Positions 4,894 through 6,282 of a stretch of 27,916 nucleotides of DNA are shown here, piece after piece. Origin of the DNA: an uncultured Clostridia bacterium. Lineage in GTDB: Bacteria > Bacillota > Clostridia > Christensenellales > Borkfalkiaceae. A program made the translations under genes and the position numbers. The notes under the pieces are model-generated. The model saw only the letters and a list, made by a program, of their open reading frames with translations. It was not told where the DNA came from and did no database searches. Every line of letters starts with the position of its first letter. Positions within the stretch are counted from its first letter, which is position 1. The stretch covers positions 1-27,916 of the forward strand of contig CAKQQY010000024.1 in assembly GCA_934271245.1 (NCBI GenBank), written 5' to 3'.

Positions 4894-6282
4894 ATGATTT
4901 TGTCGGCAATTTTGTCTCATATTTGGATTATTCTTGCTGTAATTGTAATTGGAATAATTATTGGCTTGGGATATTTTAAAGCTCCTCCTGATGTAGCTTA
5001 TATTATTTCTGGTCTACGAAAAAATCCTCGAATTATTATTGGTAAGTCTGGTCTAAGAGTTCCATTTCTTGAGAGAATTGATAAGCTATCTCTTAAAGCG
5101 ATGCAGATTGATGTAAAGACAAAAACTTCTATTCCTACTTGTGATTTCATTAATATTAAGGTTGATGCGACTGCCATTGTTAAAATTGGTCAGACGCCTG
5201 AATTGATTGAAGCTGCTGCACAGAACTTCCTTAATGCAAAACACGATGAAATTATGAATAAAGTTAATGATCTTCTTGAAGGTAATTTGCGTGAGATTGT
5301 TGGTACCCTTGGTCTTGTGCAGATGATTAATGATCGTAAAGAATTCTCCATGAGGGTTCAGGAAAATAGTGTGCCGGATTTGGCTAAGTTGGGCCTTGAA
5401 TTAATTACATTTAATGTTCAGAATTTCTCTGATGATAATGATGTAATTACTAATCTTGGCATTGATAATGTTGAGCAAATTAGAAAAGATGCAATGATTG
5501 CAAAATCTAATGCGCAGCGTGAAATTGCAATTGCTGAAGCACAAAATGCTAAAGAAAGCAATGAAGCAAGAGTTAAGGCTGCGGAAGAAATGGCCGCCAG
5601 AAATAATGATCTTGCTATTAGACAGGCTCAGTTGAAGCAAGAAGCTGATACGAAGCAGGCACAGGCTGATGCGGCCGCTGGCATTGAGGCAGAAAATCAG
5701 CGTAAGCTACGTGATGTAGCAGCAACTGAAGCTAATATTGCAAAGGCTGAGCGTGAAGCAGATCTTAAGCAAAAAGAAATCCAGTTGAAGGAATATGAAC
5801 TTGACGCTCTTGTCCGTAAGCAGGCTGATGCTGATAAATACGCGGCTGAGCAGAAGGCTTCTGCAGATTTGATTCGTCGCCAGAAGGAAGCAGAAGCTAA
5901 GGCTTATGAAGTAGAGCAAGGAGCAAAAGCTATGAGAACCAAGGCCGAAGCTGAAAAATTTGCCGCAGAGCAGAAGGCCGCTGGTATTAGTGCTATTGGT
6001 GAAGCTGAAGCACTTGCTATTGAAAAGAAAGCTGAAGCGCAGAAGAAATTTGGTGAAGCATCCGTTCTTGAAATGTATTTTAAGGCATTGCCTGAAGTTG
6101 TTAAAAATGCGGCTGAACCTCTTAATAATGTTGATAAGATTACAGTCTATGGCGAAGGCGGTAATACCAAGCTTGTATCTGATGTAATGCAGACGGCAGA
6201 TAAAATTATGAATGGTTTGTCTGAAGCTACTGGTATTAATATGAAAGAAATTCTTGAAAGCTATTTGAATAAAAAGAATTAA
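4894..6282 (+). CDS. Flotillin-like SPFH/band-7 protein (N-terminal TM, SPFH domain, EA-rich flotillin repeats)
   Basis: N-terminal hydrophobic helix, SPFH-like core, then a long AEAEKFAAEQKAAG / EA-repeat coiled coil and C-terminal flotillin-like tail. AAAGGAG RBS. Confidence 0.8.
   Translation: MILSAILSHIWIILAVIVIGIIIGLGYFKAPPDVAYIISGLRKNPRIIIGKSGLRVPFLERIDKLSLKAMQIDVKTKTSIPTCDFINIKVDATAIVKIGQTPELIEAAAQNFLNAKHDEIMNKVNDLLEGNLREIVGTLGLVQMINDRKEFSMRVQENSVPDLAKLGLELITFNVQNFSDDNDVITNLGIDNVEQIRKDAMIAKSNAQREIAIAEAQNAKESNEARVKAAEEMAARNNDLAIRQAQLKQEADTKQAQADAAAGIEAENQRKLRDVAATEANIAKAEREADLKQKEIQLKEYELDALVRKQADADKYAAEQKASADLIRRQKEAEAKAYEVEQGAKAMRTKAEAEKFAAEQKAAGISAIGEAEALAIEKKAEAQKKFGEASVLEMYFKALPEVVKNAAEPLNNVDKITVYGEGGNTKLVSDVMQTADKIMNGLSEATGINMKEILESYLNKKN

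What the first reader, a model, noticed from the sequence alone, without database searches (positions are those of the whole stretch)
4894..6282. Flotillin-like SPFH protein co-transcribed with RNA-repair-type enzymes
It has an N-terminal TM, an SPFH core, a long AEAEK/EA-repeat coiled coil and a flotillin C-terminus. The gene follows pnk and the phosphoesterase with overlapping or adjacent start codons, then a strong terminator. Together with the MVP homolog, the phage carries two SPFH-fold scaffold proteins. Possible roles are membrane microdomain or compartment remodelling during infection.
Basis: partly seen in the sequence, partly recalled or inferred. Interest (0 to 1): 0.5.

Follow-up and report, generated by a model that had tools for sequence, protein, structure and literature searches.

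The report
Host-derived flotillin in a gut phage
A large gut phage that reads TAG as an amino acid carries a genuine, full-length flotillin (membrane-scaffold) gene captured from its Clostridia-type hosts. It is real and under selection, but it is an optional add-on to the neighbouring RNA-repair genes and its role in infection is unknown.

Summary
ORF 4894-6282 encodes a 462-aa flotillin with an N-terminal TM helix, an SPFH core, a roughly 170-residue Ala/Glu/Lys-rich helix and a Flot C-terminal domain. It aligns end to end with human flotillin-1 (E=3.6e-48) and with the FloT model. It is the last gene of a tightly packed operon (wHTH, NADAR, 2-TM peptide, phosphatase, Zn-ribbon, PNK kinase, phosphoesterase, flotillin) that ends in a strong terminator.

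New findings:
- The phage reads TAG as a sense codon, but this operon has no in-frame TAG, which suggests early expression.
- The nearest cellular relatives are Clostridia flotillins (about 50-55% identity to Ruminococcus).
- dN/dS is 0.07-0.18.
- At least 161 viral contigs carry relatives, mostly in the same position.
- 49 of 74 related contigs have the same PNK-phosphoesterase module without a flotillin, so it is an accessory insertion and not an obligate partner of RNA repair.
- No NfeD partner was found.

Most likely it forms a membrane-anchored oligomeric dome that organises or protects the host membrane early in infection. That role is inferred, not shown. It is a new member of a known kind, of moderate-to-low interest.

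The parts
4894..6282 (+). Flotillin gene (462 aa), ATG start, TAA TAA stop, no in-frame TAG
   Evidence: Band_7 plus Flot domains; end-to-end match to human flotillin-1 (E=3.6e-48) and to the FloT model (E=1e-75)
4880..4886 (+). Ribosome-binding site AAAGGAG, 7 nt before the ATG
   Evidence: Read directly from the sequence
4906..4971 (+). N-terminal hydrophobic membrane anchor (about aa 5-26), followed by K29, R42, K43, R46 (positive-inside, SPFH domain cytoplasmic by inference)
   Evidence: KD19 maximum 2.88; helix 2-25 in the model; hydrophobic character conserved in all phage and bacterial homologs
5047..5517 (+). SPFH / Band 7 core (aa 52-208)
   Evidence: Pfam PF01145 E=2.5e-17; Foldseek 1win TMt 0.73 and stomatin SPFH domains TMt 0.72-0.77; dN/dS 0.023 against L096
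5470..5985 (+). Long Ala/Glu/Lys-rich helix (aa 193-364), the wall-forming coiled-coil region of flotillins
   Evidence: Single helix with pLDDT up to about 90; composition; aligned to the flotillin-1 helical region
5941..6195 (+). Flotillin C-terminal 'Flot' domain (aa 350-434)
   Evidence: Pfam PF15975 E=1.2e-8, 35.5 bits above the 27-bit cut-off
6281..6318 (+). Intrinsic terminator: 14-bp stem, 3-nt loop, T-run
4333..4878 (+). Metallophosphoesterase (MPE2), the conserved gene immediately upstream
   Evidence: Metallophos_2 E=1.3e-7; phrog_547 phosphoesterase E=7.2e-41
3800..4330 (+). P-loop polynucleotide-kinase-type kinase
   Evidence: AAA_33 E=1.3e-19; phrog_505 polynucleotide kinase E=5.9e-25; bacterial Pnkp kinase region E=4.4e-14, below cut-off
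3592..3879 (+). Zn-ribbon protein (95 aa), overlaps the kinase gene start
   Evidence: phrog_1257 E=8.1e-10; conserved in synteny
2754..3536 (+). Calcineurin-like phosphatase (MPE1, NinI-like)
   Evidence: Metallophos E=3e-12; phrog_246 E=3.8e-34
2588..2764 (+). 58-aa protein with two hydrophobic segments; no family hit, not NfeD
   Evidence: homologs in L098-L101
2173..2595 (+). NADAR-domain protein
   Evidence: PF08719 E=3.5e-30; TIGR02464 E=6e-29
1904..2176 (+). Small wHTH-like protein, first gene of the operon after the upstream terminator
   Evidence: phrog_2440 E=8.9e-4 (weak)
1820..1853 (+). Terminator separating the MVP-like gene from the flotillin operon
   Evidence: 15-bp stem plus T-run
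23..1813 (+). C-terminal 596 aa of an MVP-like (major vault protein) gene, cut by the window edge; 822 aa in the near-identical contig L001
   Evidence: MVP_shoulder E=6.3e-22 and Vault_3 E=3.5e-10; L001 gene table

Best explanation
The gene encodes a bona fide FloT-type flotillin that a lineage of large (about 100-400 kb) gut phages of Clostridia, many of them TAG-recoded, captured from its hosts. It sits at the 3' end of an early operon written in the standard code.

Shown:
- family membership and domain order;
- the membrane-anchor segment;
- strong purifying selection;
- closest cellular relatives in Ruminococcus, Oscillospiraceae and Lachnospiraceae;
- a conserved position after the phosphoesterase in many contigs, but absence from many relatives that keep the same flanking genes;
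- no in-frame TAG in a genome that otherwise uses TAG as a sense codon.

Inferred:
- The protein is made early, before the code switch.
- It inserts through its N-terminal helix with the SPFH domain on the cytoplasmic face.
- It self-assembles through the long EA-rich helix and C-terminal domain into a closed dome on the membrane, as solved flotillin, HflK/C, stomatin and prohibitin complexes do.

Best guess at its use: it supplements or replaces the host flotillin scaffold so that the infected cell's membrane stays organised and functional until programmed lysis. On that reading it is one item of a damage-control and host-takeover gene block (NADAR, kinase, phosphoesterases, RNA ligase and NAD salvage in relatives), not a component of the RNA-repair pathway itself.
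For: Identity.

Anchor and helix.

Selection: dN/dS 0.07-0.18 overall and 0.023 in the SPFH core.

Origin: 585 cellular relatives. The best are 47-61% identical and nearly all are Clostridia, including cultured R. flavefaciens 007c, Y1 and YL228 at 51-52%. The architecture is the same, but the hosts carry an extra acidic C-terminal tail and an extra EA segment.

Distribution: at least 161 viral contigs. The Zn-ribbon-PNK-MPE2-flotillin-PIN-PhoH order is kept while flotillin identity falls from 90% to 44%.

Accessory status: 25 loci with and 49 without flotillin after MPE2. Presence is patchy on an MPE2 tree.

Timing: 0 TAG in 2,000 codons of genes 23-6282, against 20 TAG in 2,365 codons of genes 6440-14907. 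Using TAG/(TAG+CAA+CAG) = 20/88 from the second block, zero TAG among 75 Gln-type codons has a probability of about 4e-9 (counts; the arithmetic is mine). Alternatively coded phages are reported to keep early genes in the standard code and to use recoding in structural and lysis genes (bioRxiv 10.1101/2021.08.26.457843).

Cage-forming behaviour of the family: flotillin 44-mer dome (10.1101/2024.05.09.593390; PMC13000311), plus the PDB hits.

Neighbourhood theme: NADAR here; NAD salvage, Macro and RNA ligase in relatives; Tad2-like and NAD genes next to flotillins in unrelated viral contigs.
Against: - There is no direct evidence for oligomerisation, membrane insertion, expression timing or any phenotype.
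- The AF2 model is only moderate (mean pLDDT 62.6, pTM 0.31). The SPFH1-like N-terminal part (aa 24-61) and aa 366-426 have pLDDT below 50.
- Absence of TAG fits early expression but could have other causes.
- The 'membrane maintenance' role is an argument from family function and neighbourhood theme only.
- No PHROG family and no PADLOC model match the protein, so there is no functional precedent from phages.
Confidence: 0.55

Rival explanations
1. RNA-processing scaffold. The flotillin recruits or organises RNA enzymes at the membrane. These could be the phage kinase, phosphoesterase, RNA ligase and PIN-PhoH encoded around it, or the host's membrane-bound RNase Y/degradosome. On this reading the operon linkage is functional.
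For: - The gene is flanked by RNA-type enzymes on both sides in about 60 viral contigs.
- The unrelated T5-like Vibrio phage KIT04 has its flotillin within 5 kb of homologs of both phosphoesterases (E=1.7e-7 and 4.2e-16) and an RNA ligase.
- Precedent: S. aureus FloA promotes RNase Y oligomerisation and activity. H. pylori flotillin promotes RNase J degradosome foci, and floA lies next to the helicase gene rhpA (PMC7492731).
Against: - 49 of 74 related loci keep PNK-MPE2 without a flotillin, at least 22 of them with PIN-PhoH directly downstream.
- Flotillins in other viral contigs have unrelated neighbours.
- The closest bacterial flotillins have no PNK or MPE neighbours.
- Mobile endonuclease genes are inserted between MPE2 and the flotillin in some relatives, so there is no strict coupling.
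- The whole region is collinear across the clade, so adjacency alone carries little weight.
Confidence: 0.15
2. Lysis-timing or holin control. The flotillin dome sequesters or organises holin or other lysis factors in the membrane to set the time of lysis.
For: - In relatives without the radical-SAM insertions, the flotillin lies two genes upstream of the CHAP/amidase endolysin and a following small membrane protein.
- It is a membrane protein.
- SPFH cages are known to enclose membrane proteins (HflK/C-FtsH structures among the hits).
Against: - It is a separate transcription unit with a strong terminator.
- The flotillin is TAG-free, whereas the endolysin and the holin-like gene each contain 3 in-frame TAGs, which suggests different timing.
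- Many relatives with the same lysis genes lack the flotillin.
Confidence: 0.1
3. Superinfection exclusion or defence interference at the membrane. An early membrane protein blocks DNA entry of competing phages, or shields the membrane from host abortive-infection effectors that kill by membrane damage.
For: - Early-type coding.
- An accessory, patchy distribution typical of competition and defence genes.
- Neighbours with anti-defence flavour: NADAR here, NAD salvage and Macro in relatives, Tad2-like near flotillins elsewhere.
Against: - No match to any PADLOC model.
- No known exclusion or anti-defence protein has this fold, to my knowledge.
- The support is purely contextual.
Confidence: 0.12
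4. Virion-associated or structural protein, as suggested by mass-spectrometry detection of SPFH-domain proteins in jumbo-phage particle preparations.
For: SPFH-domain proteins were detected by MS in Erwinia jumbo-phage preparations (PMC7760394; PMC6034870).
Against: - It has an N-terminal membrane anchor.
- It lies among early, non-structural genes in a TAG-free block, whereas structural and lysis genes of recoded phages use the alternative code.
- It is absent from many close relatives.
Confidence: 0.03

Closest known systems
Bacterial flotillins of Clostridia (e.g. Ruminococcus flavefaciens) and FloT/YuaG of Bacillus subtilis
   Same: Same domain order along the whole length: N-terminal hydrophobic anchor with the GY(F/I/V)KAPPD motif, SPFH, long EA-rich helix and Flot C-terminal domain. 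Identity to R. flavefaciens isolates is 51-54%. The FloT model aligns end to end.
   Different: - Phage-encoded and shorter: it lacks the hosts' acidic low-complexity C-terminal tail of roughly 40-70 aa and one EA-repeat segment.
- It scores 255.7 bits against a 700-bit FloT equivalog cut-off.
- It sits in a phage operon with kinase and phosphoesterase genes that cellular homologs lack.
- No NfeD gene is nearby.
Human flotillin-1/flotillin-2 complex (PDB 9bq2, 9l3g)
   Same: Collinear sequence match (E=3.6e-48, 27-453 to 2-419) and top structural hits. The expected assembly principle is an SPFH ring on the membrane, a helical wall and a C-terminal roof.
   Different: - About 25% identity.
- The human complex is a 22+22 hetero-oligomer anchored by acylation and hydrophobic hairpins (10.1101/2024.05.09.593390; PMC13000311).
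- The phage has a single gene, so presumably a homo-oligomer or a mixed oligomer with host flotillin, and a predicted TM helix. It has one Cys only.
Flotillin/SPFH genes annotated in other phages (Vibrio phage KIT04, phage csAssE-Sib, RaK2-like and other jumbo phages)
   Same: Phage-borne Band_7 proteins, some with a Flot domain. Their function is stated to be poorly understood in phages (PMC7760394; PMC13239085). In KIT04 the gene is also near phosphoesterases and an RNA ligase.
   Different: Only 22-25% identity to the window protein, different phage lineages and hosts, and different neighbours in csAssE-Sib (replication genes). These are probably independent acquisitions.
HflK/C-FtsH and QmcA-YbbJ (SPFH-NfeD) cages of E. 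coli
   Same: SPFH-superfamily membrane cages. They are structural relatives of the model, and QmcA also matches at the sequence level (E=2.7e-7).
   Different: They belong to other SPFH subfamilies with defined partners (FtsH, NfeD). No NfeD or protease gene accompanies the phage flotillin.
Major vault protein homologs of gut phages (bioRxiv 10.1101/2023.11.10.566534)
   Same: The same window carries an MVP-like gene 3 kb upstream. The MVP shoulder and cap-helix region is a distant structural relative of the flotillin model.
   Different: - It is a different family (soluble vault shell, with no membrane anchor) in a separate transcription unit (terminator 1820-1853).
- It lies within 8 kb of the flotillin in only 9 of 80 viral loci.
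- The preprint does not mention flotillin or SPFH.

Membership tests
Flotillin family (SPFH superfamily) | SPFH / Band 7 domain | tested here: met
   PF01145 E=2.5e-17, 63.9 bits against a 23.6-bit cut-off; Foldseek 1win TMt 0.73 and stomatin SPFH TMt 0.72-0.77
Flotillin family (SPFH superfamily) | Flotillin-specific C-terminal region (EA-rich helix plus Flot domain) | tested here: met
   PF15975 E=1.2e-8, 35.5 bits against a 27-bit cut-off; helix 193-364; composition
Flotillin family (SPFH superfamily) | Collinear full-length similarity to experimentally characterised flotillins | tested here: met
   Human Flot1 E=3.6e-48 over 27-453 to 2-419, and Flot2 E=2.2e-39; FloT model 46-457 to 52-475 of 477
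Flotillin family (SPFH superfamily) | Membrane attachment through an N-terminal hydrophobic segment | tested here: met
   Prediction only: KD19 2.88 at aa 5-23, with no other hydrophobic segment; helix 2-25; the feature is conserved in homologs
Flotillin family (SPFH superfamily) | Assembly into a large ring or dome oligomer on the membrane | not testable with these tools
   Only a monomer model could be made. Inferred from solved family members.
FloT equivalog (NCBIfam NF058507) | Score at or above the curated equivalog cut-off (700 bits) | tested here: not met
   255.7 bits, E=1e-75. It is FloT-like but cannot be filed as a FloT equivalog.
SPFH-NfeD operon pairs (YuaF-FloT, YqeZ-FloA, YbbJ-QmcA) | Adjacent or nearby NfeD-family gene | tested here: not met
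   No PF01957 hit in 40 window ORFs scanned. None in the precomputed Pfam of genes within 10 kb in L001-L009. None among the listed families next to flotillins in other viral contigs (first 25 of 51 families only). The rest of the genome (a relative's contig is about 176 kb) could not be read.
Phage or bacterial RNA-repair module (T4 Pnk-Rnl; bacterial Pnkp type) | 5'-kinase and 2',3'/3'-phosphoesterase activities encoded together | tested here: inconclusive
   Kinase: phrog_505 E=5.9e-25, and Pnkp kinase region E=4.4e-14 but far below cut-off. Two metallophosphoesterases are present. The family assignments fit, but substrate specificity was not tested.
Phage or bacterial RNA-repair module (T4 Pnk-Rnl; bacterial Pnkp type) | RNA ligase in the same module | tested here: inconclusive
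   There is none in the window upstream of the flotillin. The 23354-24562 gene is an ATP-dependent DNA-ligase type. RNA_ligase-type genes lie 5-10 kb upstream in relatives and within 8 kb in 25 of 80 viral loci.
Phage or bacterial RNA-repair module (T4 Pnk-Rnl; bacterial Pnkp type) | Flotillin as a constant component of the module | tested here: not met
   49 of 74 MPE2-containing viral loci lack a flotillin downstream

The most novel reading that the evidence does not exclude
The phage deploys two self-assembling cage proteins of the SPFH superfamily: a membrane-bound flotillin dome and a soluble vault-like MVP shell. Together they act as infection-specific compartments that sequester host factors (for example membrane-bound RNase Y, FtsH or defence effectors) or shelter phage RNA and its repair enzymes. 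This would be a protein-shell counterpart of the jumbo-phage nucleus in Gram-positive gut bacteria.
Probability: 0.06. Interest if true: 0.8.

Novelty: new member of a known kind. Interest (0 to 1): 0.33.

Why it matters
Flotillins and other SPFH proteins are now known to build closed domes on membranes, yet their cargo and purpose in bacteria are still debated. A phage that keeps a streamlined flotillin under strong selection and expresses it from an early operon is a natural experiment. Close relatives with and without the gene exist, so comparing them could show what a flotillin dome does for, or against, a bacterial cell under attack.

In practical terms, the work shows that the gene is an accessory, host-derived module and not part of RNA repair. 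It also shows that annotation of this phage family needs TAG read as a sense codon. By itself the finding extends a known family to another group of phages and does not reveal a new mechanism.

Tried and rejected
- Megablast of window 1-8000 against deposited phages gave no match.
- An exact-sequence look-up of the window's flotillin found no record, so near-identical P0002 was used instead.
- PHROGs gave no family for the flotillin or the MVP-like protein. PADLOC gave none for the flotillin.
- Rfam (gathering threshold) and ARAGORN found nothing in the window, so no suppressor tRNA lies here.
- The nine-sequence alignment A1, which included KIT04 and csAssE-Sib, was too diverse for the locus scans. 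I replaced it with A2.
- NfeD partner: not found. The small TM ORFs upstream of the flotillins in csAssE-Sib and KIT04 have no Pfam hit.
- A metallophosphoesterase directly upstream of bacterial flotillins looked like an ancestral linkage, but it occurs in only 2 of 80 cellular loci (L082, L089) and is not a close homolog of MPE1 or MPE2. I rejected it as a general link.
- Single acquisition versus several: the NJ trees of flotillin and MPE2 have no support values and short deep branches, so I left this unresolved.
- The AF2 model from a shallow 16-sequence alignment is only moderate. I used it for topology and fold search, not for detail.
- A non-functional passenger gene is rejected by dN/dS of 0.07-0.18.
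Full report
**1. The observation**

The ORF at 4894-6282 (+ strand, ATG, 462 aa) is present as described and ends in two TAA codons.
- Pfam gives Band_7/SPFH (E=2.5e-17, aa 52-208) and the flotillin-specific Flot domain (E=1.2e-8, aa 350-434). Both are above their curated cut-offs.
- A sequence search of PDB chains aligns residues 27-453 with residues 2-419 of human flotillin-1 (E=3.6e-48), and also matches flotillin-2 (E=2.2e-39).
- The NCBIfam FloT model aligns end to end (E=1e-75), but at 255.7 bits it is far below its 700-bit equivalog cut-off.
- The N-terminus holds the only strongly hydrophobic stretch, with a Kyte-Doolittle 19-residue mean of 2.88 at aa 5-23. Residues 195-365 are 26% Ala, 13% Glu and 12% Lys.
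- An AlphaFold2 model from a shallow alignment is moderate (mean pLDDT 62.6). It shows a helix at 2-25, an alpha/beta core at about 64-190, one continuous helix at 193-364 (pLDDT up to about 90) and C-terminal helices.
- Foldseek against the PDB returns the flotillin complex first (9bq2_B, E=2.6e-12; 9l3g), then the flotillin-2 Band 7 domain (TMt 0.73). Stomatin, prohibitin, HflK/C and QmcA follow, and vault MVP chains appear at E of about 1e-4.

**2. Operon and signals**

The kinase gene stops at 4330 and the phosphoesterase starts at 4333. The phosphoesterase stops at 4878 and AAAGGAG lies 7 nt before the flotillin ATG. A 14-bp stem plus T-run terminator follows at 6281-6311, and another terminator (1820-1853) separates the upstream MVP-like gene.

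The unit 1904-6282 therefore reads: small wHTH-like protein, NADAR, 58-aa two-segment membrane peptide, NinI-like metallophosphatase, Zn-ribbon protein, P-loop polynucleotide-kinase-type kinase, phrog_547 phosphoesterase, flotillin. The MVP-like ORF (MVP_shoulder E=6.3e-22, Vault_3 E=3.5e-10) is cut by the window edge and is 822 aa in a near-identical contig.

**3.

Several genes are broken by in-frame TAG. In one radical-SAM gene the TAG lines up with Gln in its paralog (EVTF[TAG]LTDNCNLCCSYCYQ against ITFQVTEDCNLGCSYCYQ). Reading TAG as sense restores full-length radical-SAM, PIN-PhoH, endolysin and other genes.

Usage is mosaic:
- genes 23-6282 have 0 TAG in 2,000 codons;
- genes 6440-14907 have 20 TAG in 2,365 codons;
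- the RNase H, gyrase and ligase block has 0 TAG in 2,076 codons.

Given the TAG share of Gln-type codons in the middle block (20/88), zero among the 75 in the first block has a probability of about 4e-9 (my arithmetic). Published work on alternatively coded gut phages proposes that early genes stay in the standard code while structural and lysis genes are recoded (bioRxiv 10.1101/2021.08.26.457843). So the flotillin operon is probably translated early, by unmodified host machinery. This is an inference; no expression data were available. No tRNA gene lies in the window.

**4. Relatives and origin**

The protein database holds thousands of homologs. The best 120 are 69-100% identical and sit on gut-metagenome contigs of up to about 210 kb.

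Among GTDB genomes, 585 stretches encode relatives. The best are 47-61% identical and almost all come from Clostridia: Ruminococcus (including cultured R. flavefaciens 007c, Y1 and YL228 at 51-52%), Oscillospiraceae and Lachnospiraceae. These host proteins share the architecture, down to the GY(I/F/V)KAPPD motif after the anchor. They also carry an extra acidic tail of roughly 40-70 residues and an extra EA segment.

An NJ tree places the phage sequences among the Clostridia sequences, in at least two groups. The tree has no support values, and I do not rely on its deep branching. Pairwise dN/dS against relatives is 0.07-0.18, with 0.023 in the SPFH core, so the gene is maintained by selection.

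**5. Is the link to RNA-repair genes functional?**

*For a link.*
- In IMG/VR, 161 stretches encode relatives. Among the 80 kept, about 60 show Zn-ribbon-kinase-phosphoesterase-flotillin, then PIN-PhoH 2-7 kb downstream. This order holds while flotillin identity falls from 90% to 44%, on contigs of up to 402 kb.
- An unrelated T5-like Vibrio phage, KIT04, has a flotillin within 5 kb of homologs of both phosphoesterases and an RNA ligase.
- The literature links flotillins to RNA decay machines: FloA with RNase Y in S. aureus, and flotillin with RNase J foci and the adjacent rhpA gene in H. pylori (PMC7492731).

*Against a link.*
- I searched viral contigs with the phosphoesterase instead of the flotillin. 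Only 25 loci had a flotillin downstream, and 49 did not despite at least 2.5 kb of available sequence. At least 22 of those 49 keep Zn-ribbon-kinase-phosphoesterase followed directly by PIN-PhoH.
- On a weak phosphoesterase tree, flotillin presence needs at least 12 state changes among 70 tips.
- Homing-endonuclease-like genes sit between the phosphoesterase and the flotillin in some relatives.
- The closest bacterial flotillins have no such neighbours. The single exception, L016, is a 151-kb contig with the full phage gene order that was binned into a MAG.
- Flotillins in other viral contigs sit among NAD-salvage, Tad2-like, nucleotide-metabolism or replication genes, with no recurring partner.

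I conclude that the flotillin is an accessory gene. It was inserted at the 3' end of an early operon, between the phosphoesterase and PIN-PhoH, and then inherited and conserved in a large sub-lineage. The RNA-repair-type module does not depend on it.

**6. NfeD partner**

None of the 40 window ORFs scanned matches NfeD. None of the genes within 10 kb in three related lineages does either, and the small membrane ORFs preceding the flotillins of csAssE-Sib and KIT04 have no Pfam hit. The window is a whole 27.9-kb contig, so the rest of the genome could not be inspected.

**7. How it most likely works**

*Shown:* family, domain order, anchor, selection, host origin, operon position, TAG-free coding and accessory distribution.

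*Inferred from the family* (solved flotillin, HflK/C, stomatin, prohibitin and QmcA complexes): the protein inserts by its N-terminal helix with the SPFH domain on the cytoplasmic face (positive residues follow the anchor). It then assembles through the long helix and C-terminal domain into a closed dome that walls off a membrane patch.

*My best guess for its use:* it supplements or replaces the host scaffold early in infection, keeping the membrane organised and functional until lysis. On that view it is one item in a damage-control and host-takeover block alongside NADAR, the end-healing enzymes and, in relatives, RNA ligase and NAD salvage.

*Rivals:* an RNA-enzyme scaffold, lysis-timing control, superinfection exclusion or protection against membrane-targeting defence effectors, and a virion component. 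Each is scored in the report sections, and none can be excluded by sequence alone.

**8. Comparison and novelty**

Phage-borne SPFH or flotillin genes are already annotated in several phages. Their function is described as poorly understood (PMC7760394) or unclear (PMC13239085), and 'flotillin family protein' is the deposited name in KIT04 and csAssE-Sib. MVP homologs in gut phages have been described in a preprint that does not mention flotillin (10.1101/2023.11.10.566534).

The present gene is therefore a new member of a known kind. What this analysis adds:
- its Clostridia origin;
- its conserved but dispensable position;
- its standard-code (probably early) context in a TAG-recoded phage;
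- its occasional co-occurrence with an MVP-like gene (9 of 80 loci within 8 kb).

Interest is moderate to low unless the two cage-forming proteins turn out to build infection-specific compartments.

Noticed in passing
window 6440-17848 and 24621-27178, compared with 23-6282 and 18306-24562: The phage reads TAG as a sense codon, probably Gln: a radical-SAM TAG aligns with Q in its paralog. Usage is mosaic, with TAG-free blocks (flotillin operon; RNase H, gyrase, ligase) alternating with blocks where nearly every gene has 1-3 TAGs. A GIY-YIG gene at 25239-26237 has 11. No suppressor tRNA lies in the window. Standard-code ORF lists fragment many genes here.
   Followed up: partly
window 6695-7990 + 7993-8844, and 15180-16493 + 16496-17161: There are two paralogous cassettes, each a radical-SAM/SPASM-type enzyme followed immediately by a Cys/Gly-rich repeat protein. 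In the near-identical contig L001 the repeat proteins hit Pfam PF27846, tSAM_targ_Cxxx_rpt. This looks like a phage-borne RiPP-like maturase and substrate pair, present twice. These cassettes are absent from relatives such as L004, where flotillin is followed directly by PIN-PhoH.
   Followed up: no
window 9704-12317: The PIN-PhoH gene is split. The N-terminal part (9704-10615, one in-frame TAG) and the C-terminal part (11880-12317) are separated by about 1.26 kb that holds a LAGLIDADG-type ORF (10917-11861, two TAGs; PF14528 faint in L001). This is probably a group I intron with a homing endonuclease, but there is no Rfam hit at gathering threshold.
   Followed up: partly
window 23-1813; L001 2407-6902: An MVP-like (major vault protein) gene lies 3 kb upstream of the flotillin. 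In L001 a DUF2828/DUF7788 protein sits two small genes upstream of it. MVP-like genes also occur in three huge-phage records (LR756500, LR756501, LR756503; 37-39% identity) and directly downstream of the flotillin in L170. MVPs in gut phages were reported in bioRxiv 10.1101/2023.11.10.566534, which says nothing about flotillin.
   Followed up: partly
window 12375-14355: A CHAP + Amidase_2 endolysin (three in-frame TAGs in the 12864-13901 ORF; called as one 426-aa gene in L001) is followed by a 150-aa protein with hydrophobic segments (13903-14355, three TAGs). The second is a likely holin.
   Followed up: no
L004/L005 2152-7334; L010 11826-12695: Relatives with a 71%-identical flotillin carry a full NAD-salvage set just upstream of the same operon: isochorismatase-type nicotinamidase, PRPP-synthetase-like protein, NAMPT, Macro, NAD synthase and NADAR. 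KIT04 has a PRPP synthetase nearby. This resembles the phage NAD-reconstitution counter-defence gene sets (my recollection, not checked here).
   Followed up: no
L082 3260-3967 and L089 2117-2773: In two cellular contigs (a Lachnospiraceae MAG and a Muribaculaceae MAG), a metallophosphoesterase with GDL...GNHD...GHVH motifs lies directly upstream of the flotillin on the same strand. This occurs in only 2 of 80 loci, and the protein is not a close homolog of the phage phosphoesterases.
   Followed up: yes
L016 (JAFZGJ010000195.1, 151 kb) and possibly L015 (ONBX01000009.1, 93 kb): These contigs are filed under bacterial MAGs. L016 carries the full phage gene order (MPE1, Zn-ribbon, PNK, MPE2, flotillin), and both group with the phage flotillins in the tree. 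They are probably phage contigs mis-binned into MAGs.
   Followed up: partly
window 3592-3879 and 3800-4330: The Zn-ribbon gene (phrog_1257, annotated 'ribosome associated inhibitor A; zinc finger domain') overlaps the start of the kinase gene by 40-80 nt in another frame. The pair is conserved across the clade.
   Followed up: no
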